The notes below the pieces were generated by a model. That model saw nothing but the letters and a program-made list of their open reading frames with translations, did not search any database and was not told where the DNA came from. The position numbers and the translations under genes are program-made. From Mytilus trossulus (taxonomy: Eukaryota), in the NCBI RefSeq assembly GCF_036588685.1, contig NC_086379.1, forward strand, positions 3,968,001-4,032,000: 64,000 bases of DNA. The letters are read 5' to 3'. Position 1 is the stretch's first letter, and the number at the start of each line of letters is the position of its first letter. Shown piece by piece: positions 9,286 through 59,659 of the stretch.

Positions 9286-9859
9286 TCTTGAATATGAACA
9301 TATTAAAATGAGTTTTAAAATTGAAAGTTTAAACCGAAAATTGGCACACATGCATCAAATTAATAAATTTTCGAGGTTCGAAAGATGCAAGGATATTTCA
9401 TAAGGTCATCCGGAATGTCTGTAGGGCTGTGGAAAATACTCAGCAACGTTTTGACTAGTATAAGGAAGTTAAACATATACAATGTGAAGAACGCAATGCA
9501 ACATTTAAACTATCAATCGATCATTCAACAATATTTACGACCAACCAACCAACAAATTTACCAATCAACCAATCAATTAACTGTGCATGCATTCATGCAG
9601 ATTTTGGAAGCCAATATGTTCAATATAAGATTCTTGGTCTTTATTTCTAGAGAACCAATCCAATGAATGTAACAAGTCAATCAGTCAAACAATCAATCAT
9701 CCACATAGCAGTCAATAAAGTTTCGAAGGGAAAATAATTTTGATAGTTTGTTTTTTTAATAATTGGTTTATATTAGTACTTTATTTTATACATATACATT
9801 TTGTACGTTAACTAATAGCATATAGCGTACTCGGGAAGATAATTTAGAAAAAAAACATG

Positions 9860-10790
9860 CTTCATAAAAAAGAATGGCCAACGCAGATTCAAGTATCTTG
9901 TCTTAGGGAGGAATAATTCCTACTTTGTAAAGGACCCCTCTGATTCTAACAAAAAATTCCCTGAATCTGATATTATCAAGATGCTTGATTTCTTGATTGA
10001 CAACATATTTGTTACGTTCGGAGGACGCGTTTTTCAACAGACTGTCGGCATACCAATGGACACAAACTGTGCCTCTCTACTAGCTGACTTTTTTCTTTAT
10101 TACTATGAGGCTGAATTCATACAGGAATTTCTTAGCAAATCCTTTATCTCTACTTTCCGCCATATAGATGATGTTCTTTTGCTAAATTATTCAAAATGGT
10201 GACTTTGTGGAACGCATCTGTCCCATTGAACAAGAGATAAAGGATACTACAGTAACAGTTCATATCTCGACTTACATTTAGAAATTGACAATAAGGGTCG
10301 ATTGAAAACAAAACTTTACGACAAAAGAGATGATTTCAGCTTTCCAATTGTGAACTTTCCATTTCTAAGTAGCAACATTCCAGCAGCAACTGCATACGGG
10401 GTATATATCTCCCAATTGATACGATATTCCCGTGCTTGCATTTCCCATCATGATTTTCTTGATAGAGGGTTGCTGCTCACAAGGAAGCTATTACACCAAG
10501 AGTTCCAAATGGTGAAGTTGAAATCATTCCTTCGTAAATTTTACGAGTTGGTTGACCGTTATGGAATAACCGTTTCAAAAATGATATCGGATATGTTCCT
10601 TACGTCGTAACTACTATCCTCTTCCCTTTCATGAATGTGACCTACCGAATAAGATTATTTACCGAATTTGTTATCACATAAGCATCACGACGGGTGCCAG
10701 ATGTGGAGCAGGATCTGCTTACTTTTCCGGAGCACCTGAGATCAGCCCTTGTATTTGGTGGGGTTCGTGTTGTTTATTCTTTTTTTTCTA
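9860..10790 (+). mobile_element. Penelope-like retroelement RT fragment with 3' tail (pseudogenised)
   Basis: NIFVTFGGRVFQQTVGIPM(D)TNCA, FRHIDD, TKLYDKRDDFSFPIVNFP and SQLIRYSRAC. Shorter related pieces at ~2230-2480 and ~45580-45900. Confidence 0.75.
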
Positions 10791-10916
10791 TGTTGTGTCA
10801 TGTGTAATTAATAGTGTTTGTCTTTTTGTCTTTTTCATTTTAGCCACTGCGTTGTCAGTTTGTTTTAGATTTATGAGTTTGACTGTCCTTTTTGGTATCT
10901 TTCGTCCCTCTTTTAC

Positions 10917-17197: not shown

Positions 17198-20100
17198 ATG
17201 GAGATCGTCGCAAGAATTTTTTTTCTTTTGGTTCTTGGTATATCAAGATTAAATATATTTGGTAAGTTTGTTTTGTGACTTTCGTTTTGTTATCAGATGA
17301 TAGTTCAAATAGTTAATTCAAATACATTATATGTCCACAAAACACACACTTATTCCTACAATATACTTTTCAAAGACTGAAACTTAACAATAATTCTTGC
17401 CTAATAGTGATTATATCGAAAGAAAAACAAACTAAATTTAGTAACACATCCAATATTAAAAACTGCTGAGACACCTTCAGATAAATTGTATATGTATGTT
17501 ATTCTTGGAGTAGATTACACTAGTTTTAACATTATGCAAATTTTATAAACAACAATTTCGAAGTTTTTATGAGTTTGTTTTAGGACTACGTTTTCGCCTA
17601 TTATGCAAGAATAATAGGAAAATTAATTTGACTTCAAGTTTGTATGAATAAGTACCAATAAATATTATTTTTCAGATGTACAGGCATGTGAGAATATATC
17701 TTGTTTCTTGTGGAGAAAAACAGACAAACAACTATCTATGTCATGTTACATTAAAAACGTTTATTCATCTATACTCATACTTGATCCCTTTAACACGACG
17801 CAAGCAAATTGTTCAGCCTTTAACAACACGTTCGTCTGTGATGCACTGCCGGAAATTGGTGCATATTTCAATTCTCTAAAAAACGAAACAGTTGTACAGT
17901 GGGATATATCACATGTTTTAATAACTGGAAAATGGTTGTGCATTCATGGTGATGATATAATCGAACTGTACATAGACCCAACAAAAGGTAAGATTAATGA
18001 ACAAACAAAGTTGTTTTTGGTAAATAATTCTGGAATTACATAAAAAAAAATTATACAAATAACATCCGTACAGTTAAGGAAAAATAAACATGTATTTAAA
18101 CGAGTTTTTCTCCTACATTGAAGCGATAACAAATACCATAAATGTTCTCATTCATTGAAAGCACATTGTGTTGACCCTGCAATTTGATTAAAATCGGGAG
18201 GAATTAACCGAGGACAGCCATGCATACTACATATCAAACTGTAATGTAAACAATAATTTGAAATTTGCTATTCCTCGCAACAGAGGCATGACACCAGAAG
18301 ACTATAACTATACACGTTTATGATTATGAATTTGTGTAAACAATACACTAATTTTGTATATAAGAAAGGTCGTTTAAAGTATGACAGATTTTATTCTTTT
18401 ACCTGTTAATTTTGTAAGCAGTTCACTATAATTTAAATTATTCAGTTTGTATACAAACTCATCATAGATACCTGCATTTTGATGCGATATTCGCGCGTTT
18501 CGTTTATAAAAAAATCATTATTGCGCTTCAATGCCAAATAAAGTATACCGCTGAAGGGCATTGTGAACCAAATATTCAAAATGGTTTCTAAATACTAAAA
18601 AATACTTCTAATGTAATCTATTCTTAGGGTTAAACTCAGATTCAAAGTTTTGTAAACATGTTATTAAGAATGAGGGATATCAACAAGTTTTAAAGTATCC
18701 CAAAAGAAGCCTATTATCTATATTGAATTGACACACATGTCTTTCATCTCCAATCTCGGGTCCTTTCATAGCTGACTATTCGGTATGGATTTTGCTAATT
18801 TTTGAAGACCGTACGGTGACCTATAGGTGTTAATTTCCGTGGTATTTTGGTATCTTGTGGAGGGTTGTTTCATAGGCAATTATACCACATCTTCTTTTTT
18901 TATTGAATCATAATCGGGTACCGTCAAAATTAGATTTAAGGGTGTTGCGCTTCCGATTGATGTTCAAAATCAATGATTTGGTCATTTATCCAGATTCTGT
19001 CCATCTCAAAAAGAAAATAACAAAATTACCCAAAACGGCAAGTTCCTTTTCAGATAGAAAAAATCCAAAGCTCAAACACATCAAACGAATGGGTAGTGTA
19101 AAGTGACATTGCAATGTATTTGTTATCATTGTTGACTGTTTGTTGGCCAACATACTTGCATATAGTCAACAACTCACATTTATCGTTCATTTTTGTGCAA
19201 AAATATTGTGCTCTGTTTAATTTAAACATATGCTATTGAAAAATGCAAATTTTAAACTTTCAGCCTCACACTTATCTATTAAAGTAGAAATGAAGACAGG
19301 AATACAGATTAAAAACAAAAACATATATTTGTTTACTTTCGAATGTACTTCATGTCAAACACCTTATGGCAATTCTGCTGAGTTCATATTAAATAACAAT
19401 ATTCTGGACGTACTTCGAGAAGCCGACAATAAATGTTATCATAATTTAGGGGAATGCAATTACAAAACTTGTGAATGCTGTAATAATTCGAATAGATATG
19501 TTTTGAAATATGAAACGCTTACAAAGACCTCAATAATTTCGTATGGGTGTAGGATGAGATTTAACGATGAACACCAGCAAGGTCTCGTGGTAAAAGAAGT
19601 GATTTCACAATTCAGAGATCTTGGTAAGTGATTTTTTTACATTAAATGTTTCTGCAAAGTGAATTTGCCTNNNNNNNNNNNNNNNNNNNNNNNNNNNNNN
19701 NNNNNNNNNNNNNNNNNNNNNNNNNNNNNNNNNNNNNNNNNNNNNNNNNNNNNNNNNNNNNNNNNNNNNNNNNNNNNNNNNNNNNNNNNNNNNNNNNNNN
19801 NNNNNNNNNNNNNNNNNNNNNNNATGATTATTGAAAATTCGTAGCAAAAATAGTTTTCAACATTTCCTATTCACAAATAAAATTATTTTTCTCCATTGAA
19901 TTTGTTTGAAACGATCTATTTGTTATTGTTTTAGATGACGTTTACCCAATATTTAGTTTAAATAGTATTAATGAAAAATTACACGAATAGAATATTACAA
20001 TACAAGTTCACATCCTTTTTCATACATAACATTATATTTTGATTAGGAAGACACAACTTATCATTGCTTATCTCTCGTGGAAATGGGACTTACGTAGGAT

Positions 20101-29100: not shown

Positions 29101-32100
29101 AAATGTACAAGTTAGAAATATCAAGGATGTTCATGAAGTATATTTGTCGGGAATGATAACAAACATTCACCCATACAACAAATACAACGAAATACTAGAA
29201 AGGTGTGTCAACTATCCATATACAATTTGTAGACAACTTTTAATCAATACATTACACAAATATAATATATAACTCTACTCACATAGCTCTAGAGGCAGTC
29301 AGTACCTGTGAATCTATAAGAAATTTAATTATCATCAATGATGATGACGTATTTAGCTATCAATTAATTTGACCATTTCGTCGTCAGTTTAATAAAAAAA
29401 AAATCATATTTTCTTTGTTCTTTAACACTTTGAATTGTTTTACATTTTTTTTGGGGTCCTTTTATAGCTGACTATGTGGTATGGGATTAGCCCATTGTTG
29501 AAGGCCGTTGGGTGATATGTAGTTGTTAATTTCTGTTTCATTTTTGTCTCTTGTGGATAGTTGTCTCTTCAGCAATCATAACACATCTCATTTTTTTATA
29601 TGTGATTTTGTAAAAATAAGATATATTAAAAATGTTATTGTTGTTTGTTGTTGATGTATATTTTATCTGTAAAGAGTTCCTTAAAATTCAGCTACGAATA
29701 TCTAAATAAAATCTTTAATGATTTAATAAAAGGTAATTATGATCCATTTCAAAAGGTAGGTATAAATATATTTAAAACATAACAGTTACTGTGCATGCAT
29801 TTACATGTACAGAAAGATGGGTGGATAAATCAATTGCGCAAATATAGTTTTAAACAATTACTTGTAATAGTTCAGCTTTTAAATTTCAGCAAAGCAACCA
29901 AAGACTGAATATTGGCATTTGCAGCTTATATTACAACAACTGACAAAATCAATGCATAGGAAATTACAGTAAAATTTGGAATGACTCCAACATGAGATAA
30001 AAAAATCACTTTCTGAATTGAAAAATCTTTATTCTGTAATCCTTTTTTAAGTTGCTAGCTTTTAAATTGGTGTTATGAATTGACACATTTACTTGTTATA
30101 ATACTTACTTCGTCTGTGGCGGCAGATCAAAGCAGTTGATAAAATAACTGTTATCAAAAGTAAAATCGTTCCAAATGATAGCCAGCTGAACAGTCTTAAG
30201 TTAAAAACATTAGAGCCTACTAAAAATAAATATCACATTAAATTAATGATCAGGTTTTTTTTAAAGTTTAAGAACCGATCTATATCGATAAGTTTGTTTT
30301 TGGTGTTTAACAACCATTCTGTCTCCCAAAAAAAGACCACGATGAAAGAAAGCCTCCATTTTCTTTAGTTGTATATTTAAGGTATATAAAATTGATAAAT
30401 AATTGCTTCATTATAACAACTTGCAACCGACCATTCTTTCGCATGTTTCATTCTATTATCCAATCAAGAGGCATTGACGTAGATATCAAATTTTTTTTTG
30501 ATTTTTTAAGAGACGTAGAGATTTTGTTTCGTGTTATTCTTGCTTTTTATTTTAGCGTTATAACATGTATAATGAGTGCCTTTTACATTTCAATTTTCTG
30601 TGTTGTTTCTACTGGTTTCAGTCATCCGTTTGTTGGTCCATATAAACAAACTGCATATCTATTATTGTTATAGTGGTTTTTTTTTATAAATACTGTTCCA
30701 AACATTAACAATTATTTTCATAAAGTCTTCTTTATTCAGATTATTCCAAATTTTTCTAAATGTCACGAAGAATACATAATAAACATGTCTAAGTTGCCTT
30801 TAAATAATTGTTTATTAGTTTGTTTTGTCAACCCTGTGTGTTTATAGCATTTCTGATAGACTAGTTCATTTTTAAAACAATTGTTAATGGCATGTAGCTG
30901 TTTACTACATTAAGTTTGTTTCTTAACGGATTTTTGTTTCTTAAAAGAAAGGAATTGACATGTCTTTTTGTTTCTTCAATGCGCATGTTGTGACTTTGCA
31001 TGACATAAATTCTTTTCTGATACATTGTGATATGTACAGGATATTGTATTCTTTAAGACAAAGATGAGACCAAACGAAATACCACAATACATTGATGGTT
31101 AATATTTAATTTTTGTGGTATATAGACGCAAGAAGATCTGATATAAGAGCGAAGGAGACAACTCTCCATCCGAGTAAAATTTTGTAAAAAGTCAAAAATT
31201 ATAGGTGAAATCGTTATTAAATGTACCAGGCTTATAATTCAATACGTCAGACGCGCGTTTTGTCTACAGAAACTCAACGATGACGCTCAGATCAAAATAG
31301 TTATAAAGCCAAACAAGTTCAAAGTTGAAGAGCATTGAGAGCCCAAAATTCCCAAAAAATATACCAAATACGGCTAAGATAATTTATGCCAACGATAGGA
31401 AAATCCAGAGTATTTCGAAAAAATCATATATGTTATATGGTATGATACTAAACCCCTCACGGGAAGTAGTGTGCCTGATATTCATAAGATGAAGACATAC
31501 TCTTTCAATCAGTTTAATTGTAGTCTGGATCTGGCATGTCAGTTAACTGCTAGTAGTCTGATGTTATTTATGTATTATTGTCATTTTGTTTATTTTCTTT
31601 GGTTACATCTTCTGGCATCAGAATCAGACTTCTCTTGAACTGAATTTTAATGTGCGTATTGTTATGCGTTTACTTTTCTGCAATGGCTAGATGTAAGGGG
31701 GAGAGTTGAGATCTCATTAACATGTTCAACCCCGCTGTAATTTTGTACCTGTCCCAAGTCAGGATCCTCTGGTCTTTAGTAGTCTGGATTATTTTTAATT
31801 CTAGTTGCTTGTGTACAATTTGAAGTTTAGTATTGCGTTCTTTATCACTGAACTAATATATATATTTGTTTAGGGGCCAGCTGAAGGACGCCTCCAGGAG
31901 CGGGAATGTTTTGCTGCCTTGAAGACCTGTTGGTGACTTTCTGATGTTGTCTGCTGTTTGGTCGGGTTGTTGTTTCTTTGACACATTCCCCATTTCCATT
32001 CTCAATTTTTTTCTGAAAACAAGCAATTTATAAAAATAACAAATTGAATAATTTTCGGAATTTTAAATCCTCAATGCTCTTCAACTTCATACTTGTTTGG

Positions 32101-35100
32101 CTTTATAAATATTTTGATATGAGCGTCACTGATGAGTCTTATGTAGACGAAACGCGCGTCTGGCGTACTGAATTATAATCCTGGTACCTTTGATAACTAT
32201 TTACACCACTGGGTCGATGCCACTGCTGGTGGACGTTTCGTCATCGAGGGTATCACCAGCCCAGTAGTCAGCACTTCGGGGTTGACATGAATATCAATTA
32301 TGTGGTCATTTTTATAAATTTCCTGAATATAAAACTTTGAATTTTCGAAAAACTAAGGATTTTCTTATCCCAGGAATAGATTACATTAGCCGTAATTGGC
32401 ACCACTTTTCGGAATTTTAGATCCTCCATGCTCTTCAACTTCGTACTTGTTTGGCTTTATAAATATTTTGATATGAGCGTCACTGATGAGTCTTATGTAG
32501 ACGAAACGCGCGTCTGGCGTACTAAATTATAATCCTGGTACCTTTGATAACTATCAACACTGAAGTGCTGATTACTGTACGGACTACAATACCGAACCTT
32601 TGAATTTTAATCACGAGGAATTACATTGAAAGAGTGTTATAGATCCTTAATAAGTAGGAAAAGTAAAGTAATACCATTATCATGATTGTTGAATTCAAAT
32701 TCCATTTTTGTCGTTCCATACTCATTATCAATCAAAAGATAGCACTTAAATATAGCGTAGTCGTTACTGACTGTGAGATTTGCGATGTAACCATTGTGGG
32801 TTAAAATTTTCCCATACATTCTTATCACTAAAACATCTTTCGACATATTTTGGAAATATTGTGTTGAGTTTGGTAGCAGCATTGTTTTGTAAAACCATCT
32901 CGGGTTATATGGTCTCTTTACTGATAAAAACTTGACAGATAATGTCACAGCTTTGTCAATCGTTATAATTTTGTCAATTTCCACAGGAGGACCTGGATGA
33001 AAAACAAAATGATAAAATGAAATTTCATTAAAAATTCAGAATTGAAAAAATCTCATTACCAGGGAAAACATTATATACTTATTTTTATAAAAATAAGGCT
33101 GTTTGTTTTCTTGTTTGAATTGTTTTACATAGTCATTTCGGGGCCTTTTATAGCTGACTATGCGGTATGGGATTTGGTCATTGTTGTAGGCCATACTGTG
33201 GTGTAAAGTTGCTAATTTATGTGTCGTTTTGGTCTCTTTTGAATAGTTGTCTCATTGGCAATCATACCACATCTTCTTTTTAATGTTTATTTGTTCACGT
33301 ACATTTTACGTGCTGTATTTAGAATTGATCCCTGCTTCAATATGACAAAATTAGTATGCACGATCATCCTGACGCTTCGGCATTTGCCATTGGATGTGAA
33401 GCAACCAACATTCAATTAATCATAATGCACTCTTGAGGTTTTTAAAGCATTTGTTTAACCATATGTTTGTTTTTCAATACTATATTGATTTTTGTCATTT
33501 ATAATATTTATCTCAGCATAATAATCAATTAAGATATAAACCTCTTTGAACAAAATACTGATCAAGATGATTTTAAATTGAATATGCAACCGAATAAAAA
33601 TGCATTGCTATGAAACTGCAAGATAAACATAAAAATAATAAGATTATAAACGAACTACTAAATTAGAATTGACTAAGTATAATCTACATCTGTCATAACT
33701 ATATATATTTACAGTTACAAATGTGTGTTTTTTTATTTTGTTTTTGTTGTAGTTGTTGAAAACACCGGCTCATTATTACACCAAAAAGTGCACGCAGATT
33801 GCATAATTTATTTTTTTAAGTATTGAGTTGAATCAAAATTCTAAGTTTTGAAACGTCAGTCATTTAACTAATTATTGATTAACGAATCAATTTTGGAGGT
33901 GATGCTTACTAATTGATACATTTAGTTGTACATTAAAAACTATTAATTGTTGTTTTTAAAATATTTTAAATCATTGTTATTCACGGCATTTAACAGATTA
34001 TTAGGCCACACCAATTTAATTTCTTGTTTTACGGATTTTTGGACTTCAAAAAATGGGGCGAGCGAGCGATTTGAAAATTTTAATAAAAAAATATTTAATT
34101 TGCACATTTTTGAGGCGAAGCTTAAAAAGTAAAGGCGAGCGATTATAATTTTTTTTTTGTAAATATAAAATAGGAGGTTTTGACTATATTAAAACTTGAT
34201 TTATCACTTGTACCTTGACATTTCTTTAATTTATGAAATATTTTTTCCCTGTTCAACAAGAAATAATTGAATAATTAAATCTGGTCTATGTATGTGTGAC
34301 TGACAATGAGACAATTCTCCATCCAAGTCATAATTAGGTTCAGAACAACCCCTTAATGTAATGAATATCCCTTTTATGAGGGGTCATATAAGTTATAATA
34401 TATTTTTTTTGTAAAAACACTTCAAGTACAAAAGGGCTAATATTTTCCCAAAGAAATATAATATTTGGTATTAAATGGTCAAAACATATCCAAGAATTTT
34501 GTAATATTCCTGGACTTTAACCTTGTTAACACCTTTACTTTAACAGTTTAATATTATTCAAAATAAAAAATGTAAGTGGACCCATCCCTCTTTTAGAAAA
34601 GTGGTTTAAAATATGATGTATTTCTCCTCAATTTGAGTAAAACATTCTAAGTTGTCAAAGATTTTGTATAGTAGCACTATACAAGTCCTTAGTATTTCTA
34701 TTTTCTTTTCTACATCAGTAGATATGGTAAAATGACCCCTTCAGGGCCCTTGTCTGAGGGAGGGTTGTTCCAAACCTGATAATAACAAACATAAGTCAAA
34801 GTACGGCCTTTTACACAGAGCTTTGATCCAGACCAACCAGCAACCTATAAGGCACCACAACTTAGTATTGTACACAATTCGAACAGGAAAACCAACGATC
34901 GAATTTATATTTCCAAACGGGAAAACACCAATGAACCTGCCACATCAACAAACGATAACGGCTGAACAATAGGTCCCTTAATAAACCTGAACAGGTGCAC
35001 AAACCTGCAGCGGACATGACCGTCACCATACTTTATAATTGCAGTTGAAGGCAAATCCTTCAGGAGTTCTTTGTACTTTATTTCCACGAACATTTTGTTA

Positions 35101-38100
35101 TAGGGAATATAAGTTAGGGGGAAAGAAACCAACGTTTTGTTCTGTACTGGTATTTCCGGTTATATATTTACTTGTCCTGCTTCCATTTATATCGGAGCAC
35201 TCCCAGGTGAAATAAATTAATTGGTTTCATGCTGAAACAAATATTCTCGCAGATATTTACAGTGTTGTGGGGTACTGATAGGTTTAAAATCGTTATATAA
35301 AGGCTAGACTGTGATTTATAAACAAATGTTGAGATCTTTTTATAATAATTACAAAAAAAACGGTGCGGGAAATGGACATGATTTCATTTCCGGATGCGGG
35401 AAGCGGGAAAATAATAAAAATAAAAAAAATCTGTTTTGAAAAAAATAGATGCAGGCCGGTCCGTCGAACAAGGAATCAAATTGGTGTGGCCTTAGGACAT
35501 TTAATTAATGATGCCTCAGCGTAGTTAATAAGATGACACATGTACATAAATAGATTAGCTACCGTTAACGGTCACACTAGTAAAACTTTTTTGATGTAAC
35601 ATCTGTTGAGAGTCTTTGTTCCATGCTTCACAGATGTATTCACCATTGTCTTCATAATTACAAGAATCAATTGATAGAAATGAAATATTCCCCGTTACAT
35701 TTCCTGCCTCAGATCTTATAAATGTTCCATGAAATCTGTGCTCAAACGGTGAGAATCCAAATTCTGACATTTCGCCACTGATTGTGCATGATATAATGAC
35801 GGAATCTGTGTTATTGCAGAATATCTTATCATTGATATCAAGAATCGGTGCTCCTGGAATTTAAAATTTTCAAAGGTTTCAAAATTAAAGTAAAATAAAA
35901 AGACCCGTTCTGTATGTAACCTTCATAAGTAGTTATTTCTTTATGGGAAATATATTATCGTTTACCGTACAATTTGCAAAGTAAACCAAATTTTTGCCTA
36001 CTATAGCAATTTGTATATGCCGTAATCTCCTAGGGTTATCGTCAATTGTCAACTGTTTTTAATAGTGTTTGTACAAAAAATCTGTCAGTGCACCCGAAAA
36101 AGGCAGTACTACTTGTGGTGTTTGAATTCAATGTGAACCAATTGTTTTATTTTACATTGTTGTCCATTTTTTGCTTAAACCATCGAATCACTTTTTTTCT
36201 TTCCTATTTGACCTGTTTACCTTAATGTTTTTTGTTGATTTTCCTTGCAGCGCATACGCAACACTATTTGTCTACTCTATTCGACATATTTCTAAGTTCA
36301 TGGGCTACAGGATTTTGGATAATTTCACGCTTTGTACACCAATATCAAAATGATATTGTACGATCAATTCGATATCTTCTTATATTTGATCAATCACCAA
36401 TTTATTAGCACAATGTTACCCATTAACAGCGTACGATTTTATAAAACACTCATCTAGAATACAGCAGACCCTAACTTAGATATTTATCATTACTTGATGC
36501 TATAAACGAGACATACATGTATGCACAAATATACGTAAATGTCAAATCTGGATTAAAAAATATTGACAATGATATTATTTAAACATGAAGTAAAAACAAG
36601 TAATAAAGCTGAATAAGGTCACAATAAAGCAACACAAGCTATCTCATAACTCTAAATTATCATATTAGTTATGTCAAACAATTGGAAGGTATAGCTTGCT
36701 AACTGTTAACCCAGGTTTAATCTACAATTTTCTACATAAAGAAATGTCTTCACTAAGTCAGGAATGCGACAGTTGTTTTCCATTCGTTTGATTTGTTTCA
36801 GCTTTTGAATTTGCCAGTTGATAGGGAATTTCCGATTTGAATTTTCCTTTGAAATCGGTGTAATTTCTATTTTACTTTTCACTTACATCTATGTAGTGAT
36901 AAAAAAAAACATGTTTATGCAATTATATAGATGTGGTGTAGTCAATCATATAGTACTTACTATTTACATGCAGTTTGATTGAAGATGACTTTGTAATCAC
37001 GCCTGAGGCTTTACATGAACACTTTGTTCCATTGTCTAACGACGTCACCATTTTGGAAAATTTAGCGACGTATGTATTATTTTCACGCTCACTTGTTTGA
37101 ACAATTCTGTCAAGACATTGCATGCGAATATGGAATAGGGAATTCGTGGAAATTGTTCTGCACGTTATTGCAACAACACTGCCGGCAGATAGCGGCAATT
37201 CTTTATCGAATAAAATGAATGGACCGTTTATATCTGCAACAAGAAGTGAAATAAAATGGAGAAATACGTTTCCACAGATAATCATACAAATATAAATATA
37301 ATTGAAAATGTCGTTTGTTTCCTTGATATTTGTTAATAGTTTTGTCTTTCTTTAAAATTTGAATCTCACTGACGCAGTTGATCACTGTGTCAGGTTCACA
37401 TTTCGTTATTACAAATATAAAGTCTTGTTTTTTTTTTTGTAATGCTTACAAAAGAATGGTGAGAATGAACTTTGTTTTATACGCACCAACTACTGATACA
37501 AAAAGGCAATCAGATAATGAGCCAAACATCTTGAAATCCATAGAACATCGAAATGCTAAGTCTCCTGTATCTAATTCTGAAAAATACTGCAACGTGAAAC
37601 TTCTTCCATCTGCCAAACACTGGCACATATGCCTTTTACAATCTGATGCCTCCAGGCTTGAGAAACAGCCGCTTGCATTTTTACTTATCTTTGTATAAAA
37701 CTGGTTGTTAACATAAAAATAAACCGCCGAAACAGTCGATTCTGTATTTGAGGTACACAAGAGAGAAATCGTTTGTTGCCTTTGGACAAATTTCGGTCCA
37801 CTTAAAGTTATTCTCGGCGATACGATAAACCCTGAAAAAGTAAGACCTCATTAGTTTAGTTTGTACAACTTGAACGATACACAATTGTAAATGATAATGA
37901 CTTGTTATTATTTCAAATATTGCACGACGGTTCCAACCAATCAAATCAATCAAGAAACAGCAATTTGAAGATAACCGTTAGTGAACTATCGAAACAACTA
38001 CTGACAGTATTCCCTCGGTCTAAATGGCAATATCAAAGAACAATGGAATATACAACATTATCATTTAAAACTGTTTACTCCGGTGAGGGGGGAGGGGTTG

Positions 38101-41100
38101 AACATTCAGACGTTTCTCTATTCCCGTCACATTATATAAAAGCCTGTTCAAAGTAAATGAAGTGTTTTGCCAGAAATCAGGCCGTTGAGTTTCTATTTGA
38201 ACTGTTTCATATTTTATTATTTCATAGCTTTTTTATGATGCCTTTATACTGTGGTGGCTTTGTTCGTTTTTGAAAGACACACTTTGATCTATAGTTGTAT
38301 CCATGTCATGTGCGCTTTATTATATTTCAAAAAGTAAAATCACAAAAAATACTGAACTTAGAGGAAAATCAATTCGGAAAGTCCATTACCACAAGGCAAA
38401 ATCAAATAACAAAACGCATTAAAAACGAATGGACAAGAACTGTCATATTTTGACTTGGTACAGGCATTTTCGAATGTAGAAAAATGTTGGATTAAACCTG
38501 GTTCTATAGCGCTAACCCTCTCACTTTAATGACAGTATTATCAAATTCCGTAATTGATATTTGCAACCTATCCTAATTTTTATACTATCCGTCAGTCATA
38601 TTTAATAATACGTCATGTATAAGGCTACGAGCCGTCAGTCAAAATATAACATCAACATTGTGAGATTTGAAAATTGTTATGAACATATAAAATTACTTAA
38701 AAGACTCTCTACATTGCATGAGATACATATATATTTTTGTGCAATTATACCTTTTGGCATTTCAACATCGACAGTGATATTTTCGAATCCATGAACACAC
38801 CTCCATAAACCATTCAAAAGATTAACATTTGGAGGTCTTTTAACGACAAATACTGTTTCACCAGATGACAAGTCTTGTGTAACGTTGTTCGTTTTTGGAT
38901 TAGAACACATTGAATTTGGATATGGCAGCAAGCAGTATGCTATTTCATAACCGGACGGACTAAATATCGTGACGCTCGACACTATTTTATCTGCTTTGCA
39001 CGTTAATCTAAATTGATCACTGTTTACAATCCATGTGATGCATATACTTCCGTAGATTTCGAAAACATCTGTTTAAAAAAAATCAAATAAGTCTAAAAAT
39101 AAACCTGAAACAAGTCTATAAATTTTCTATAAAAGCTATACAGTCATACATCATTGTTTCTATACACAATTTAAGTTGGAGTTTGGCCAGGAATTATGCA
39201 AAAAAAGGAAATATAGTGATATACAATGTGTAAACTTTTTCATGTATTTGTATTTAGAGATTTTGTGAAGATAGTACTGAATCATGGCGAGTCAAACGTT
39301 TCAAAACTGGAAAAAAATAATGATTAAAAAAAGCATTTTCAAAACATGTATTTTGCAGACCAAATAAAGAGGGATAAATTATTAGTTTCAGAACTATATT
39401 CTCTATGAATTCAAATGTTTGCATTTAATCACTTCCATATTTCAATAACATACTTTTATCAGCTCTGTTGCGTTTAGCATTGAGAAGATACTGTAACAGT
39501 GGACGATATTGAGAGTGAATCATTGAAATTGTTTAGTCAAAACTATGTTGAAGGTGACCTATAATTGCTAATGTTTGTGTCATTTTTGTCTTTTGTGGAT
39601 AGTTGTCTCTTTTGCAATAATACCACATCTTCTTTTTTACATTAAACCCTTTTTTCAAAACAAAAAAATACACACTGAGATTTAAAAACCTAAAACAACA
39701 CACTGAGATTTTAAAATTACACACTGAGATTAAAAAAACATGAAAAACACACACTGAGAAATTAAAATTACATACTGAGATTTTAAAAAGGCCACACTAA
39801 GATTAAATCAATTGAAAAACACACACTTAGAATTGTTTAAAATTACACACTGAGATTCACATTGAGATTATTATGCAAGTTACTAATGAATATTCATGAG
39901 ATGAATAATTCAACAGATTATTATCTTGGTTTCTCGAACTCTTGTCATTATAATAATGTGGTTCCTTCAACCAACATTCATAATAAAGGGCATTAAGGCC
40001 TAGTTTTGGCCCAAGAAAATGAATTGTTTGATAACTATTTCAAATTGGCACATAATGTTTAGAAATGTATAGGGTCAAGAAATATAAATGATAAACATTA
40101 TGATTTTTTCTGATGACGTCACAATTACGTCATGATATGTACTATTTTCATAAAAAAATATAAAAAAACCAACAGAATTTATGCAGTTTTCTGACTTTAT
40201 TTCCGTTGTGGAAACATCCTGCGCAACCGAGAAACCACACTAATTTGACAAAAGCTTTATTATAACTATTGGCATCATCTCACCAAATATAAAGTTGTTT
40301 CTTGGGTGCGCACATACTTTCTCAGTCTAAAAAATACTTAACATTTGATGAAAAAATAAGGAAAATCACGAAATTTAACAAAATATGCAAATTAGGTTAT
40401 GATTTGTTGTCATGGTAACTTGTTCGATGTCAAATTTGTCTTTTTTTTTTCTAAGTACCTAATGCCTTAGACAAGTTTTCAGTAATAGAAGGATAGTTAT
40501 GATAACTTTGTAATTTGTAGTAATTTTTGGGCCAAATAAGGGCCTTATTGCCCCTACTCCTTTCATACCACATCTTCTTATGTCTATATATTAAGACCTT
40601 TTTTTGGTAACTCATATTCACAAGATTGTTGTCTATATAATTCAGACTAATATAATTGCTAACAGCGTATTGGGATTGTTTGCTCAAAACTTTTTAAGCA
40701 TAGGTCCTTTTTCAAACGTTTTTCAATGTTTTCTATTTTTGTTACATTTATATGCTATAATCGGCACTTGGGTAAAAATGTCTTTGCATTGTTTTTCTTT
40801 TTGTAGATTGTTCCAACATTTCTTATAATTTTTCAAGTATTTTACCATGATGTGATCATATGTGAGACAAATAATACATGTCTGTGGTTATATTTTGTAA
40901 TGAGAGTAAGGTATTTTTCATGTTCTATTGGTCCCTTACGTCGTATTCCTAATGTATTTTATAAAATATTTGGCGCCAGATTTAGGGAGTTACGAGTTCT
41001 GTCCCCTAGTTGTTTTCAGCTTGTAATAGATTAAGATTACGTATGCTAATTAGATATATGCGCATTAAAAATGCACACAACTCTCAGTGTGTAATTGTAA

Positions 41101-48769: not shown

Positions 48770-51700
48770 TCATTTTCCATAATCAGTAGTTCCTCTTGTG
48801 GAGGAATAAGTGATCCTTTTGTTTAATTTAAATCGATTTGTTGTCAGATTTGCAACTGCAAGAAAGAAACCTGTTAGACCACAAAGCAAGGTAAAAATAT
48901 ATTCCAGCCACTCGGATTCATAGAGGGCGTTGAAAATACCTATAAACCAGAAAACTCCCGATAAAGCGACCATCCGAAAGTACATTTTAGCGTCTTGGTA
49001 TATGTTCAGTTTTCGAATGTGGGCAGCTTCAGTTCGAATTTTGCAAACTTGAATAATCACAAAAAACAAACAAGATGAATTTACAAATACTGATACCATA
49101 ACAGGTCCTGTAAAAAAGATCAGGTTAGCAAGGTAATTATTTGGAAAACAGGCATATGAACCGTATCCAGCAGAAAGAAAACTAGGACCAAATACATCAA
49201 TACAGATAGATGGAATAACTAAAAATAAGGGCGTTATCAATCCTAAGGCAGTTAATCTTCTTTTTCTTTTTCGGGAGCTCTCGGTACTTTTAAGTCTCCT
49301 AATTGTCAATTTCGACAACGTTGAAGTAATACATGCGACAGAAATAGTCATAAAGGAAAACACAGAGAGCAGCAAATAATGAAGTGTAACCCCAATTACA
49401 TAACACAGTGTTTTTATTTCTGTAGCCCCAATGCCAACCATAAATAAAATGTTTGATAGCATTATTGATACAGATATGTTTTCAATGTTAGAAATCGGAA
49501 TACTAGTGGTCATACGTAATTTGCGATTGACTATAATCAGTACACATAACGCAATTGCTGATACAGAGAAGGAAACGTATGTTATCATGACAAATATTGA
49601 ATGAGTTTTTAAATTAGAAACAGTTAAACAGCTCATTTCATTGACGTGTAATTCTACTCCCTCAAACTGAGCTTCAATGTTAACCTCGCCACATCGCCAA
49701 TTGTCGATCTGGTCCAAGCCAAATACTCTGTTATCAGAGGGAAATGTGTCGAGTGATTCAGATCTAAAATAATGGTATCTATAGTCCTGCTGCTGAGAGA
49801 TCAAAGAAATATTTGTACCATTATTTGGCATATAATTTGAGTTAAGTATTTCAATCTCTGGATTATAAGTATCGTTTTTTAAAATAACCCTAATTTTTCT
49901 TTTCGTTAAGTATTTTCGAATTTCTTCAATTTCATGGCGGAATGCGGATTTATGTATAATCATTTCCACTCGTACAGTAGCAACAAGTCCGTTGTCATTT
50001 ATCCAAATCTTGAATTCGGATGTTCTTATGGTAAAGTTCCCTGCATTGTAGCTAAAGCTTACCATTACAGCAATTTGGTGAAAGCTTTCTTCCTCTATCA
50101 CTTGGTTTGAAAACAAAGAAAACATAAAATCTATACCAATGTTTGTGTATACATCAAACTGACTGCACATACCTCGTTGTTGTATCTGAAAAAAAAGGAT
50201 TTACAAATTTATATAATAAAAATTATATTTTTTTTAACTGACAAGGACTAAAATCGTCTGTTTACGAACTTTAAAGTTATAAAGAATGTAAGATTTATAA
50301 TATAAGTAAAAATTAGCTTATATGGAATTTTGCTTATGTCCTTTTCGGTCATTAGCCTCTACGACTGTTTGGGTACTTATCTTGGCTTTGAGCGTGGCTG
50401 AGGAATGTAAATCACGAACAGCATTTCACACGCACGAAATTTATAACATATAGTTTGATTTTTTATTCAACATTTATTTATGTCTACGTATTTAAACGTA
50501 ACAAGTGTTTTCCATATAAATGTATTTTCCCGCGTTTCGGAGTATAGCGGGAAAATGTTATCTAAAAGGAACGTTTAATAAGAACGATATATATATTTTT
50601 GGCGGGTTTTTGTTATGTGTAGTTGTAAACGGGGATACGTGGACCAATCATTTGGATTGTCAATAAGTATTCTTATGTTAATGAGGTGAAAGCGGGTTTT
50701 AAATTTTCTTGGGTTTGAAAAACCATTCTAGCCGCAGACGTTCAACACTAAACATGTCGGAGCCGGCAGAAATAAACATGCTCATCGACCGAAAAATTAA
50801 AGACGCTATGAGCCAGAACCAGAACGAGATACTGCAGAGCATCGACAGATTAATGTCTACTCGTTTAGACACGTTTCAGAGATCCGTCCACGAAACGCAG
50901 AGGCAGTTATCAGAAACTCAAATGTCAAAAATTCAGCAGATGAACACTGAAAATTACGTTTTCAAGCGAAAGGGAAACGAGGAGCAGTTCAAGGTTAACA
51001 CAAAAATCGCCAACAAGATGAAAGAGGCCAGAAGTATTCTAACAGAATCGCAGGACAACAACGAAAGTACAGAGGGCGCGATGAGGAACACTTGTGAAGG
51101 TTTGGACATTCTTAATCATCGACAAAAATTGATTAAGCTCGCGGATCAGTCCGAGAACGGAAGGAGAACAAATACGGATTATGAAACGCACAACCTTGCA
51201 GATGACTCAGAAGACGAAAAACACATAATACGAGCAGAAAACAAAGCGTCGAGGAAAATGAAAAGCGACAAAAAGTTTAAGACACGTACAACTCCTTATA
51301 GTGCCCCACAGTCTACTCGATTCAGCTCAGTTTATCAACAGAGTACAGTTAACATTCCTGTGGTGCATCGACCCGGAAAATGTTATGAGTGTGGTATATC
51401 AGGACATTGGAGGTCAGACCATTATAAGCAGGGTTGGCAATCTCAGAAAGAAAAGTCTGATAAGATAAGTACTAGATTATTTAGTAGTGATTTATCTGTT
51501 AATTTTGGTAGAGAAAATGCTATAGTTTTATGTAATTCACCTGTAGGTAAATTAAGAAGTTCAATTGATTATTGGCGTAATATTATTTGCGCTAACGAGA
51601 CAGTTATTGATATCCTAGACCATGGATATAAAATACCTTTTCACACAGAGCCAAGTGAGTTATTTTTCGAATAACAACAAATCGTCTTTAGAGAATTCAG

Positions 51701-54700
51701 ATTTTGTAGAAAATGAGATTTTAAAGTTGATAGAATTAGGATGCATAAAAGAATTTTCATGTAATCCTAAAGTGGTCAATCCGTTGACGGTAGCTATCAA
51801 TAAAAACAAATTAAGGTTAGTTTTAGATTGTAGACACATTAACCCACATCTTCATAAATTCAGATTTAAATATGAAGATGCTAGCGTAGCCAGTCAAATG
51901 TTTAAGAAAGGAGATTACTGCTTTACTTCCGATTTGAGATCGGCCTACCATCATATAGAGATATTTGAATCACACAAGACATATTAAGGTTTTGCTTGGG
52001 TCAAAAATCGGGAAACAAAATATTATGTCTTTAATGTTTTACCATTTTGTATATCTACTGCTGGTTATATTTTCACCAAAGTTGTAAGGTGTATTGTAAA
52101 ACATTTACGAAATTCAGGTTTGAAGATTATCATGTATTTAGACGATGGCTTAGGCGGGGCTGACGAAACTAGCATAGTTGTTCAGAAAGTACTGAAAGCT
52201 TCTGGGTTTTTTTTATAGCAGAAGATAAATGCAATTGGACACCTAGCCAAAATGTGGTATGGTTGGGTTTGGTATGGCAATTTGACAAAGGCATGGTTTC
52301 AGTCACGGAAAGGCGACTTTCCAAATTGTTAGATACTTTAAATAGAATTATACGAAAAATAGGTAAAGGAGAAATACACGTTTCGGCAAGGTTTCTTGCT
52401 TCTATAATTGGTCAGATCATATCTATGCAAGGGGCAGATGGTCCTGTAGTTAGACTACGTACACGAAGTATGTATGAATGCATATTGTATAAAGCAAGCT
52501 GGAATGCTAATGTTCTTTTGAACAGTTGATCTCTTGATGAGATAGTTTTCTGGAAGGAAAATATAGAGAAAATGAATGGCAGAGAATTGCATATTGTTGA
52601 GCAATATTCGAGTGTAGTATACACAGATGCCTCGGGCATAAGTTACGGTGGCTATTTGGTAAAAGCCATAGACGAAGAGATTATGGGTAGTTGGAACGAT
52701 GGAGAAAAATTGAAAAGTTCTACTTGGAGAGAGCTTGAGGCAGTTTATAGAGTACTGCAGTCTATATCTATGTCATTAAAAGGTCAAACAGTTAAGTGGC
52801 ACACAGATAATCAGAACGAAGTAAACATAATAAAAAAGGACAGCAAGAAATCTGATTTACAAAATATTACAATTAAAATAGCTAATGTATGTGAATTAAA
52901 CTGCATTAAGATCGTACCAGAGTGGGTACCTAGACAAGAGAACGTTAAACCAGATAAAATTAGCAAGACTATTGATTGCGATGATTGGGAGATAGACGAT
53001 ATTAAATTTGAATATCTTAATCAGAATTGGGGTCCACATACCGTAGATAGGTTGCCACTGATTGCAATGCAAAATGTAGCATATTCAATACTAAACACTG
53101 GTGTCCAGGTAAACTGGGTATTGATGCTTTCAGTCAGTGGGGTAAAGAAAATAACTGGATTGTGCCACCACCTTCAGACATATCCCGATGTATACACAAA
53201 ATAATACAAGATAAAGCAGATAGCACGTTATTTGTTCCTTTATGGGTTTCAGCACCATATTGGCCACTTTTACACAAAGTCAATGGTAATGTTATAGAAT
53301 TCGAATCGTTCATTAAAGATAGTAAAATATTACCATCAACAGTTATCAAAAAAGGTCGAGGTAGAAATGGTATGTTCGGAAAATCCACAGATTTCAGGAT
53401 GTTGGCTATGAAAATAAGGTTTTTATTTATTTCATTCTTTCCTACAGGTATCGGTCTGAAAAGCAGGGTGTTGGAGCAATTACAAGATGGAGGGATTCTC
53501 TCGGCTGACTTTGACGAATTGGGACGTAAGATGTCATCGTATTTACTGCAGTCCAGAAGTGACAATACTAACAATAAATATTTTTATGCTTATAAACGGT
53601 GGGAGAGATTTATATTGAAACAAGGGGGACTATTTTTGCCAGCAAAGCCTATACATGTAGCCCTATATTTAACCAAACTGATAGACACAGGTTCATCTTA
53701 TAGTGTAGTTCAGTCAGCATTTTACGGTATAAAATGGGCACATACAGTTCAAGGTATTTCAGATTCCACAGAAAATGCATTTGTGACTAATTGACTGGAG
53801 TCTTCTAAACGTCAACCACATAAACCGAAAGTTAAAAAGGAACATATTGATTCTGAATCTATTATTGAATTTTGTATAAAATATAAAGACAGTAATGATA
53901 TAGCTATTTTAAGGGATTTATGTATGATTGTTCTTAGTTTTTCTGGTTTTCTTAGATACAACGAGCTTAGTTCTCTTCGATGTAAATCGATGTTCATTTC
54001 AAAACTAATTATTTAGAAATTGATATTGACAAAAGCAAACCTGATCAGTATAGATTAGGGGAGAAATTAGTTATTTCAAATGTTGAGTCTGCTGCTTGTT
54101 CTTATAGTTTATTGTCCAAGTATTTCAGTATTTGTAAAATTGAGTCCAGTTCTGAGCAGTATTTATTTAAACCTATGTTTAGATCAGGCAAACGGTGTTC
54201 GCTAATTTACAAGAACAAAAAACTGAGTTATACCAGAGCTAGAGAGTGTATAGTAGCTAGACTCAAAGAAGTTTGTGGTGATATACACATAGGTTTACAT
54301 TCTTTAAGGGCAGGTGGAGCCACTGTCGCAGCTAACGCTGATGTTAACGAACGCTGCTGGAAACGGCATGGTCGATGGAAATCTGATACTGCCAAAGATG
54401 GGTACGTGGCAGACTCACTTGCACATCGTTTAGAAGTTACTAAGAAGCTAGGTCTTAAGCATTTTCATTTTATTGTATATCATTTACACTTTTTCTGCCC
54501 TTTCTTTGTGTTTCTAGTCTGCACGGCTAAATGCATTGCTTTGTGTTTGTTATTATTGTAGTGTAGTTAAGACATGTATTTTCCCGCGTTTCGGAGTATA
54601 GCGGGAAAATGTTGTCTAAAAGGAACGTTTAATAAGAACGGTATATATATTTTTGGCGGGTTTTTGTTATGTGTAGTTGTACACGTGGATACGTGGACCA

Positions 54701-57150: not shown

Positions 57151-59659
57151 CTTAATGCTCAAACAACTAGTACCAAAGCATCGGACTCTTTATATACCCG
57201 ACAGAGTTGAAGATATAATGCGCAGTAACAATTAATAGGTGGAGAGCAGCGACTTTAAATATCAGTTTCAAACGGAATTTGTACAAAATAAAATGTGTAT
57301 ACTGTTGATCACCAAATTCATATTGAATCATCAATATTTACTGCTTGTTTTGGTAATTTGAAGTGCATTCAAACTGCTGATTTGAAAAAAAAAGAAATGC
57401 ATATTGGTAAACATACAATCCTTATTAATTTTCTTTTCAAACTAAATCAGAAAGATAATTAGTTCATTAAAGAACCTATATGTTTCAACTGAAATATCAT
57501 CATGTTTTAAGGTAGCTTTTTATAATGCAGTTATTCAGCAATCACTGTATATAAAACGACTAAAATGTAATTAAAATTTAATTGTAATCGTTCGTCATTC
57601 ATTTATTTACAAAGATCCTTTAAATGCAAATGTCCAATGTATCGGTTCATTTGGTTTGAAGCTATATATATAATTACAGTAAACCTTAAATATCCCATAT
57701 TATCTTTTATTCAAATCTGCTAAATACAATCAATTGTCCAAAAATAGCAGTTTTTGTTTTTCATCATTTGAATCTGTATTTTTGTGTCTTGAACTAACGA
57801 GAATAAAAAGATATTGCATATTTGCCACTCGAACAAAAAGCCGATGACACAAACATCATTAAATATCTACCAAACACACATGTTTATATACAAATATAAT
57901 AATTTCTGTAAATATAGAAAATGCAATTTCCCCTTGGAACTCAATTTGTTATTGCAATTATGTCACTTTTACTATGAAGTTTCGTAAAATATTAAATCCT
58001 AGAAAAAAAAGTTAATATGCAGTTCTATGTTATTCAAATGTGGAAACAGAAGTATGTGCAGCTTGTTTTCAACTTGTATATGCCCCGAACTTGTTAGAGT
58101 TTAAACTCTGTTCTAACACTACCTTCACGTTGGGCCTACTTAAGAATTAAATTTCACCGCAACATTTTTTTTACAGCTGACATTCCCAAGTTATGTCTCT
58201 ATGACATGAAAAAAAGAGATTATATCTTGGAACCAGTACGAAAACAAAACAAAATATTCATGAAGATCATATACTTCCCAAAAAGAGACGTGGTTTATGG
58301 AACAGCTGTATTTACGTGTATTTTTAAGTGCAACCAATAAAAGTGCTAAATTAATAATGTGTAATTTTAATTTATTTGAAGTCATTAGCCATTTATATAT
58401 GAAATGATATGAGATGAATTGAGATAGCACGGTATGATATATGCATTGACAACTTTACCAGGAAAATGAAACATAAAGCTGAAAAATGGTAAAAAATGAT
58501 AGGCAAACAAAGAATAAAAAAAAAGAATCTGGAGATGTTTACCGCAAACAAATAAGCAATAGTTGACAAAACATCTAAAAATTATACAATTTTTACAAAA
58601 AAGTAGGTTTCAACTTTAAGAATATTGTATAAATAATCGGTGGTGTGTCATCTGTAATTTGGACGACAAGTATATCGGGCCGTTTTCTCATACTTATCGT
58701 AATTTGTTCTTAGGAAAATCGATTTGGTTGTTTCAAGTTTCTTGTTTCTTTTACATTGTCTAGTACTGGGGATGTGCCACTAGTGGTAAACTACTCGTTG
58801 GTATCACCAATTCAATACTTAGTACTTTGGAACCAACAAAACTTCCTCCGATAAATTTGGCTGTTCTTTTTAAGCCCTGTTTTGTTCTAATACATATAGC
58901 AGGCATACATTCAAATAATTTACCTACTTGGTTTTCTTACGTTTATGGTTGAGAGTTCCAAATAAAGATAGCGCTTCGGTTGCAACTATTAATTGAGTGT
59001 TATTTCTAATTTATATTGAATTTATTCATAGCAATGAATATTTGACAAATTAGAATGACGAAAAGACACGGAATTATATCTTGTTATTTCACAGTTGAGG
59101 CATAAAATGTAGTTATGAGAATTGATCGCTGATCGTGTGCAAATTTTTTAAGTAGTATTCCTGTTGAATTAATCAAAGACAAAGACTCCTGTACGGCAAA
59201 TTTGAACTTTTTCAATAGCCATTCTGACCTACAATTTGTTATTAAAAGCCATGCAGACTTGGAAGGTTAGAAACAAATACAAGTAACTGCAAGGTAACTG
59301 TACAAAATGACAGTTCTCAATGAATCAGGGACAATAAATTTCTTAGAACGAAAGTGAACATTGTATCATAGCAGGAGAATGACAGTTGTTATCCATTCTT
59401 TTGGTGTGTTTGAGCTTTATATTTTCCCATTTGCTTATAAATTTTGAATTTTTCCGTTACGTTCATTATTGAATCTTTCTATACCGGAAAATTGTCCTAT
59501 TTGTTAGTGAACATGATATGCCAGTCTTCATAAGATTAATTCATCAGTAACGCTCCGATGACAATAGTTATAAAGCAAAACAAGTACAAAGTTTAAGAGC
59601 ATTTTGGAAGGACCCAAAATTCGAAAAAAAGTTGTGCCAAATACGGCTAAGGTAATTTT

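What the first reader, a model, noticed from the sequence alone, without database searches (positions are those of the whole stretch)
32052..32554. Intact tandem hammerhead pair able to excise a 354-nt monomer (retrozyme, candidate circular RNA)
Seen: two identical minimal hammerheads with predicted GUC cleavage after 32160 and 32514, and a palindromic GCGC loop on a minimal helix III. The monomer is structured: CTGGG/CCCAG and CTGGTG/CACCAG stems, and a C-UUCG-G hairpin at 32267-32286. Established: such minimal type-I hammerheads cleave as dimers, occur in Penelope-like elements and non-LTR retrozymes of animals including mussels, and yield small circular RNAs. The class is known, but it is invisible to the ORF track, and this copy looks recent and potentially active. 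A Penelope-like RT remnant, the probable mobilising partner class, lies at 9860-10790.
Basis: partly seen in the sequence, partly recalled or inferred. Interest (0 to 1): 0.7.

Follow-up and report, generated by a model that had tools for sequence, protein, structure and literature searches.

The report
Mussel retrozyme carrying Naiad start signal
This is one ageing copy of a very common mussel repeat with self-cutting RNA motifs, likely the kind already shown to make small RNA circles, and it shares a folded RNA segment, placed just past where its copies end, with ribozyme-free Naiad jumping genes, which likely supply the enzyme that spreads it.

Summary
The two type I hammerheads are real (Rfam RF00163, E 7e-6), with predicted cuts after 32160 and 32514. 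They are canonical, not 'minimal': helix III has 2 bp, and the mussel form cleaved from a single-repeat clone in print. The exact core occurs 11,823 times in this genome. The unit is a mussel non-LTR retrozyme; a sister family here matches the published 375-nt one. The family is in RNA reads, about 6:1 on one strand. This copy is likely not the source: reads almost never carry its rare alleles, and a 2-nt change collapses its conserved fold (pairing 0.03; at least 0.8 in 28 of 36 loci). Not found in print by my searches: positions 32205-32267 match the 5' end of full-length Naiad Penelope-like elements (84%, E 2e-14). A four-helix fold is kept by compensatory changes across three retrozyme and two Naiad families. 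Copies end just before it (45 of 50 loci, +39 to +47 from the cut), and so do Naiad copies. Naiad RT likely binds it and starts internally, on a circle or uncleaved tandem RNA. This scan noted the same link on other copies before; I reached it before seeing those notes.

The parts
32052..32553 (+). Retrozyme insertion, 1.4 units: 5'-truncated part-unit (32052-32160), full unit (32161-32514), 3' tail (32515-32553)
32123..32166 (+). Canonical type I hammerhead 1: stem I 32123-32128/32161-32166, core 32129-32135, stem II 32136-32148, helix III 32152-32159; predicted cut after 32160
   Evidence: Rfam RF00163, 33 bits, E 7.3e-6; sequence
32477..32520 (+). Canonical type I hammerhead 2, identical core; predicted cut after 32514
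32161..32514 (+). Predicted 354-nt cut-to-cut monomer (family 1)
   Evidence: full-length copies at 92-98% identity elsewhere
32181..32202 (+). Tail motif (GGTAYYT...TTT) that resembles the Naiad 3' end; family insertions end at about +40 to +45 from the cut, i.e. here
32205..32267 (+). Naiad-like 5' domain: P1 32208-32214/32259-32265, P2 32216-32221/32249-32254, bulged P3, P4 hairpin 32231-32243; this copy carries a rare CC-to-AT change at 32243-32244 predicted to collapse the fold
   Evidence: BLAST 84%, E 1.7e-14; covariation; folding; allele counts
32267..32286 (+). UUCG hairpin, retrozyme-specific; A.G mismatch at 32273/32280 in this copy
32554..32577 (-). Right piece (unit +101 to +125) of an older antisense copy of the same family, apparently split by the insertion
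   Evidence: score 41; 0 of 200 shuffles reach it
32011..32047 (-). Left piece (unit about +133 to +174) of the same older antisense copy
   Evidence: score 41; 0 of 200 shuffles reach it; best of 144 units, AT-rich, so weaker
31204..31421 (-). Older decayed copy of the family (81-85%)
9858..10914 (+). 5'-truncated, frameshifted Naiad (family A) remnant: RT C-terminal part and 3' UTR
   Evidence: 87.9% over 1104 nt to L086

Best explanation
This is a 5'-truncated, decaying insertion of a mussel hammerhead retrozyme whose family is likely copied into the genome by Naiad reverse transcriptase-endonuclease through an RNA fold that the two share. Shown here: the hammerheads, more than 11,800 family copies, a fixed 3' end about 41-45 nt after the cut with variable 5' ends, strand-biased family RNA, and a domain homologous to the Naiad 5' end that starts 4-8 nt after that fixed end and is kept by compensatory changes. 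Shown in print for mussel retrozymes: self-cleavage, RtcB circularisation in vitro and abundant circles in tissue. Inferred: tandem transcripts self-cleave into 354-nt units that are ligated to circles. The Naiad protein binds the borrowed domain, nicks AT-rich DNA and starts reverse transcription inside the RNA just 5' of the domain, as shown in vitro for the Poseidon PLE. It then copies the tail, crosses the cut junction and continues round for n units until it falls off. A cut, unligated monomer would offer only about 41 nt of template, so the template must have an intact junction (circle favoured, uncleaved precursor not excluded). This copy would likely still self-cleave if transcribed but is predicted to have lost the Naiad-type fold.
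For: Hammerhead intact in 132 of 144 units; stems I-III compensated in a third family. Exact core: 11,823 copies, control 0. 3' ends at +39 to +47 in 45 of 50 assessable loci, 5' ends scattered. Window 32205-32267 matches three full-length Naiads at 84%. The Naiad version of the motif has 98 exact copies; 18 of 21 loci examined run on into the Naiad ORF, 20 of 21 show part or all of the Naiad 3' end directly before the domain, and none has a hammerhead within 450 nt downstream. Naiad identity: N-terminal GIY-YIG and C-terminal RT (Pfam E 0.03 and 5e-4, both under cut-off), DKA, CxC and mussel-type Zn-finger motifs read in the ORF against PMC8557442 section 6. A second Naiad family (44-57% aa identity; 5' end as in the published Naiad_Mgal) carries the same domain. 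Pairs: 95.4% and 96.4% of cells paired against 28-53% when slid; changes on both sides at 3 of 23 and 4 of 13 pairs; P4 varies as GGACG/CGUCC, GGACA/UGUCC, GGACU/AGUCC, GGAGA/UUUCC. Units within arrays are closer than between loci (0-1.5 differences in 6 of 21 arrays; between-locus median 18). Five of 50 5' ends lie 6-9 nt past the cut junction, so RT crossed an intact junction. PLE RT starts internally with its binding region 3' of the start (PMC11167929). Family RNA about 860 against 146 depth by mate strand in X21, similar in X22, none in the unstranded-looking X24.
Against: No biochemical test of Naiad protein on this RNA. Naiad RNA is low and only weakly strand-biased, with depth 0-17 near its 5' end. 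The helper family is not pinned down: no closer Naiad was found among the first 30 of 2,669 motif hits, and hammerhead-bearing PLEs of this genome were not searched. The covariation rests on few independent lineages, and one of the tool's measures (pairs changed on both sides) did not beat shuffles on alignment A1 (326 of 500). In the Poseidon system hammerhead cleavage was not needed and uncleaved RNA was the main template. Short reads cannot tell circles from tandem linear RNA, and no pile-up of read ends was seen at the cut. Some arrays have heterogeneous units (up to 28 differences). Library strandedness was assumed, not checked on a control gene.
Confidence: 0.7

Rival explanations
1. Same Naiad helper and signal, but the template is an uncleaved tandem or read-through transcript; circles are a stable by-product and long arrays grow by unequal crossover.
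For: Poseidon RT used uncleaved RNA in vitro and hammerhead mutants did not affect insertion (PMC11167929). The hammerhead is predicted to be sequestered in the unit (stem I probability 0.0 in four circular folds). Heterogeneous arrays exist. Two or three copies start at or within 3 nt of the cut, as run-off on a cleaved linear RNA would give.
Against: The hammerhead is conserved with compensatory changes in three families and intact in 132 of 144 units, so cleavage is selected. Many dispersed short arrays have near-identical units. Circles dominate in mussel tissue (PMC7229834).
Confidence: 0.25
2. The shared domain is an inherited relic or an internal promoter from an old Naiad ancestor, and another PLE (for example a hammerhead-bearing Penelope/Neptune) does the copying.
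For: Retrozymes in Xenopus resemble pLTRs of hammerhead-bearing PLEs (10.64898/2026.07.22.740005); mussels are said to have such PLEs (PMC7229834); PLE promoters lie near the pLTR/5' UTR (PMC8557442 passage). Not searched here.
Against: Compensatory base changes point to a single-stranded structure, not a DNA promoter; a relic would not keep every helix in three families; both Naiad and retrozyme copies end at the same offset before the domain.
Confidence: 0.15
3. One reading: this locus is a recent, active source of a 354-nt circle made by a dimeric minimal hammerhead.
For: Both cores are intact and in tandem; the helix III palindrome can pair between copies (-13.3 kcal/mol) while the intramolecular 2-bp helix alone is unfavourable (+2.4), so dimer assistance is possible.
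Against: 921 of 933, 914 of 933 and 1008 of 1012 X21 reads carry the family allele, not this copy's, at 32243, 32244 and 32280; depth is 0 over 32577-32900 in all four runs (other individuals, so not conclusive). Seven rare alleles. A single-repeat mussel clone cleaved.
Confidence: 0.08

Closest known systems
Mytilus galloprovincialis non-LTR retrozymes (Cervera and de la Pena 2020, PMC7229834, parts 1-4 of 6 read, supplement unreadable; Cervera et al. 2016, PMC4918200, Additional file 11 read)
   Same: Canonical type I hammerhead in 350-390-bp tandem repeats, thousands of copies, several hammerhead families, hammerhead predicted to be blocked in the circle. The published 375-nt retrozyme reads as family 2 of this genome, sister to the window's family 1 (78-79% identity). 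The paper's clone Mg353 is 1 nt from this unit's size.
   Different: Identity of family 1 with Mg353 was not checked. The papers name no helper; the 2020 review says the repeats show no conserved motif that points to one (PMC7761336, passage). Here such a motif is found.
Naiad Penelope-like elements (Craig et al. 2021, PMC8557442; passages, section 6 and supplement searches read)
   Same: 5' truncation, partial tandems, fixed 3' end; shared 5' domain and 3'-end motif.
   Different: No ORF; carries a canonical hammerhead, which Naiads lack (no CUGANGA in L086 or L144).
Poseidon PAc internal initiation (Frangieh et al. 2024, PMC11167929, parts 1-2 of 4 read)
   Same: RT start inside the RNA, downstream of a hammerhead cut, with the binding region 3' of the start; ATT-rich junctions.
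   Different: Another clade; acts in cis; signal lies in the ORF; its hammerhead needs protein. Here the signal is a short non-coding fold used, by inference, in trans.
Vertebrate retrozymes as PLE pLTR derivatives (Li, Clavereau, Pollet 2026, 10.64898/2026.07.22.740005, parts 1-4 of 5 read; supplements not seen)
   Same: Retrozymes as non-autonomous partners of PLEs, with homology to PLE termini.
   Different: Xenopus, hammerhead-bearing PLEs, no molluscs, no Naiad link and no RNA structure described in the text read.

Membership tests
Canonical type I hammerhead | CUGANGA and GAAA cores, NUH cut, helix I about 6 bp, II 4 bp, III 1-2 bp with palindromic loop | tested here: met
Canonical type I hammerhead | Self-cleavage of this sequence | not testable with these tools
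   Shown in print for a mussel clone; no read pile-up at the cut, which is uninformative in fragmented libraries
Minimal PLE hammerhead (min-HHR) | No or near-absent helix III, long helix II (7-8 bp), short helix I, extra base before stem II | tested here: not met
   Helix II 4 bp, helix I 6 bp, helix III 2 bp, no extra base
Metazoan non-LTR retrozyme | 150-450-bp tandem repeats, one type I hammerhead per unit, GC under 50%, no LTR or ORF | tested here: met
   354-355-bp arrays of 1 to about 70 units; no ORF of 130 aa or more overlaps it
Metazoan non-LTR retrozyme | Expressed as RNA | tested here: met
   Family level: 7,435, 8,660 and 4,583 reads in X21, X22, X24; about 6:1 strand bias in two. 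Not shown for this copy.
Metazoan non-LTR retrozyme | Circular unit-length RNA | not testable with these tools
   Circle junction equals the genomic tandem junction; shown in print for mussel
Metazoan non-LTR retrozyme | Target-site duplication (when present) | tested here: inconclusive
   No duplication above 5 nt at this locus
Published M. galloprovincialis retrozyme | Sequence identity with the published elements | tested here: inconclusive
   The published 375-nt element matches family 2 by eye; the Mg353 sequence could not be read
Naiad PLE (the helper, e.g. L085, L086; remnant 9858-10914) | N-terminal GIY-YIG, C-terminal RT, CxC, DKA, no canonical hammerhead, partial tandem pLTR | tested here: met
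   (Pfam hits under cut-off; motifs read directly)
Non-autonomous partner of Naiad | Shared terminal signals and the same insertion geometry | tested here: met
Non-autonomous partner of Naiad | Mobilisation in trans by Naiad protein | not testable with these tools
   Needs an in vitro or cell assay

The most novel reading that the evidence does not exclude
Mussel retrozymes are circular-RNA parasites of the ribozyme-free Naiad clade: a hammerhead joined to a 60-nt Naiad RNA fold that recruits a telomerase-related RT and fixes an internal start site, so that the enzyme rolls round a host-encoded RNA circle. The fold would be the first defined cis-signal of Naiads and a portable tag for copying a chosen RNA circle into DNA.
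Probability: 0.45. Interest if true: 0.7.

Novelty: new variant of a known kind. Interest (0 to 1): 0.5.

Why it matters
The element itself is a known kind and this copy is ordinary. What it adds is a direct handle on an open question: which enzyme spreads animal retrozymes, and how a circle without a 3' end is primed. A short fold shared with Naiad 5' ends, sitting where insertions of both stop, names a candidate enzyme, a binding site and a start site, each testable in the published PLE in vitro assay. It also supports the suggestion in PMC8557442 that hammerheads can parasitise PLEs that lack them.

Tried and rejected
Rfam at gathering level: no hit; the hit appears only by E-value. 'Highly structured monomer': rejected. 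CTGGTG/CACCAG stem: rejected. Target-site duplication: none above 5 nt. Pfam on the two remnant frames: nothing meaningful. Run search: no RNA holder on record was listed; raw-read runs came by species label. Read ends at the cut site: no pile-up, uninformative. Two first patterns for family 2 gave only 3 and 7 hits because the tail has a length variant; the third gave 1,685. Search for a Naiad closer to the retrozyme found a third retrozyme family instead; 0 of 30 loci led into a Naiad N-terminus. MAFFT misplaced Naiad B's inner helices in A2, so only P1 and P2 were counted there. My scripted 3'-end walk mis-scored about 5 of 48 loci, so the BLAST-based count is the one quoted; L057 and L069 were dropped as open-ended or overlapping, and 40 of the 52 loci were best hits, not a random sample. 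Paper searches for a printed Naiad-retrozyme link: 'retrozyme'+'Naiad' gave 2 works, a four-term search gave 4, three sequence motifs gave 0; none of the text read describes it. Repbase, Dfam, subscription papers, the 2020 supplement and bioRxiv supplements were not visible and could hold it. Notes search by sequence was empty.
Full report
Observation. The window holds a direct repeat with 354-nt spacing (32052-32206 and 32406-32560). Each copy has a type I hammerhead that matches Rfam RF00163 at 33 bits, one bit under the gathering score, E 7.3e-6. The predicted cuts follow 32160 and 32514. Helix I has 6 bp, helix II 4 bp, helix III 2 bp with a GCGC loop. PMC4209133 (parts 1-2 read) calls this architecture canonical; its minimal PLE form has a longer helix II, a shorter helix I and little or no helix III. 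The monomer folds no better than shuffles.

Family. The 32-nt core occurs exactly 11,823 times in the 1.3-Gb genome, reversed control 0, in arrays from one unit to about 70. Seven older fragments lie in this window alone. Two sister families exist: family 2 (1,685 exact tail motifs), which reads as the published M. galloprovincialis 375-nt retrozyme (PMC4918200 Additional file 11), and family 3 (2,669 motif hits, 350-nt period), whose hammerhead has compensated stems I, II and III. The genome is therefore inferred to be a Mytilus. PMC7229834 (parts 1-4 read) describes mussel retrozymes of 350-390 bp, self-cleavage at about 0.1/min from a single cloned repeat, abundant circles and RtcB ligation of a 353-nt monomer. 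Its supplement could not be read, so identity of family 1 with that clone is likely, not shown.

This copy. The insertion runs from 32052 to about 32553: a 5'-truncated part-unit, one unit and a 40-nt tail. The four differences between its repeats are each rare among 41 other loci, which fits identical units at insertion and later decay. The unit has seven alleles seen in at most 2 of 41 loci and is 7 differences from its nearest copy; arrays such as L002, L057 and L067 have 0-0.4 differences between units. It is not among the youngest. It sits inside an older antisense fragment of its own family, split near unit position +125; a second locus shows the same junction. RNA reads of three runs cover the unit deeply, about 6:1 on one mate strand in X21 and X22, which is the ribozyme strand if the libraries are of the usual kind; the neighbouring repeat shows a weaker, opposite bias. 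Almost none carry this copy's alleles, and the right flank has no reads. These are other animals, so this lowers but does not exclude expression of the locus.

Insertion geometry. Of 52 loci, 50 could be scored: 45 end at +39 to +47 after the cut site, and 5' ends are scattered. This is the pattern of target-primed reverse transcription with a fixed start (established for non-LTR elements and PLEs). The start cannot be an RNA end made by the ribozyme, since it lies about 41 nt inside the unit. A cut linear monomer would give only that much template. Five 5' ends lie 6-9 nt beyond the cut junction (small numbers, mostly best-hit loci). So the template had an intact junction: a circle or an uncleaved tandem RNA.

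The Naiad link. The RT remnant at 9858-10914 belongs to an abundant family (39,234 first-look candidates, 150 scored) with full-length copies of about 1000 aa. These have an N-terminal GIY-YIG, CxC and DKA motifs and a C-terminal RT, the Naiad layout of PMC8557442, and no hammerhead core. Directly after their upstream pLTR end they begin with a stretch 84% identical to window 32205-32267 (E 1.7e-14; 86% over 71 nt for a typical unit). The Naiad form has 98 exact copies; 18 of 21 loci examined continue into the Naiad ORF, so it is part of the Naiad, not a retrozyme insert. A second Naiad family, 44-57% identical in protein and with the 5' end of the published Naiad_Mgal, has the same domain with changed letters. 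Four helices hold across three retrozyme and two Naiad families with changes on both sides in P1, P2 and P4; slid controls pair at 28-53% against 95-96%. One measure did not beat shuffles on A1, and lineages are few. Naiad copies end at the motif just before this domain (12 of 12 loci), as retrozyme copies do, and the two tails share a short motif. In typical units P2 has probability at least 0.8 in 28 of 36 loci; in this copy 0.03, owing to the change at 32243-32244 (7 of 36 are under 0.2, 7 more loci could not be scored).

Mechanism. In the one PLE studied in vitro, RT starts inside the RNA, needs sequence 3' of the start, prefers ATT targets and does not need hammerhead cleavage (PMC11167929). 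By analogy the shared fold is the Naiad binding and start signal, borrowed by the retrozyme. Steps shown here: anatomy, copy number, geometry, homology, covariation, family RNA. Shown in print for mussel: cleavage and circles. Inferred: binding, trans-mobilisation, circle as template. Against: Naiad RNA is low and only weakly strand-biased, other PLE clades were not searched, and uncleaved RNA may be the template.

Novelty. The element is a known kind. PLEs were proposed as helpers (PMC7229834), and a 2026 preprint shows pLTR homology in Xenopus. The 2020 review states that no motif pointing to a helper was known. My searches found no printed Naiad link, with the limits listed under Tried and rejected. 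Notes of this scan report the same link on other copies; I had it before reading them, and they gave me two papers to check. They are not independent support. Verdict: real, ordinary as a locus, with a testable new handle on the family's helper; interest 0.5.

Noticed in passing
window 32011-32047 and 32554-32577; L162 (G000:C2, about 93.73 Mb): In two loci the retrozyme 3' end abuts an older antisense copy at unit position +125, the base of the UUCG hairpin. The flank could pair with the RNA just 3' of the start site (6 of 7 by eye), a possible primer-template microhomology hot spot.
   Followed up: partly
L165-L193 (G000:C1): A third retrozyme family, 350-nt period, with an AUC cut triplet and compensated hammerhead stems; 2,669 exact motif hits. 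The 2020 paper mentions two mussel hammerhead families.
   Followed up: partly
L058 (G000:C1:160000-166000): A 1,055-bp tandem near the contig start in which telomere-like GGGTTA repeats directly precede a 5'-truncated retrozyme.
   Followed up: no
L118-L121 (G000:C5, 60.42 Mb); L157-L161 (C10, C12): Short tandem arrays (78, 131 and 140 bp) made of the Naiad 5' domain alone, without hammerhead.
   Followed up: no
L032, L035, L041: Three arrays or copies whose 5' end lies within 3 nt of the cut site, one of them about 19 units long.
   Followed up: partly
window 31800-32010; 29450-29595 and 33136-33281: Other abundant repeats with sharp ends flank the element; the first is deeply covered by RNA reads.
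   Followed up: no
window 50703-54561 (+): Broken frames that look like a DIRS-type element (gag-like, RT/RNase H-like, tyrosine-recombinase-like), judged by eye.
   Followed up: no
window 48770-50200 and 55531-57189 (-); 36923-39072 (-): Long frames resembling an adhesion-type GPCR and, separately, cysteine-rich or Ig-like exons, by eye; whether the retrozyme lies in an intron of these was not determined.
   Followed up: no
window 62684-63890; 19671-19823: A 65-bp tandem array of 18.6 copies; one run of 153 N.
   Followed up: no
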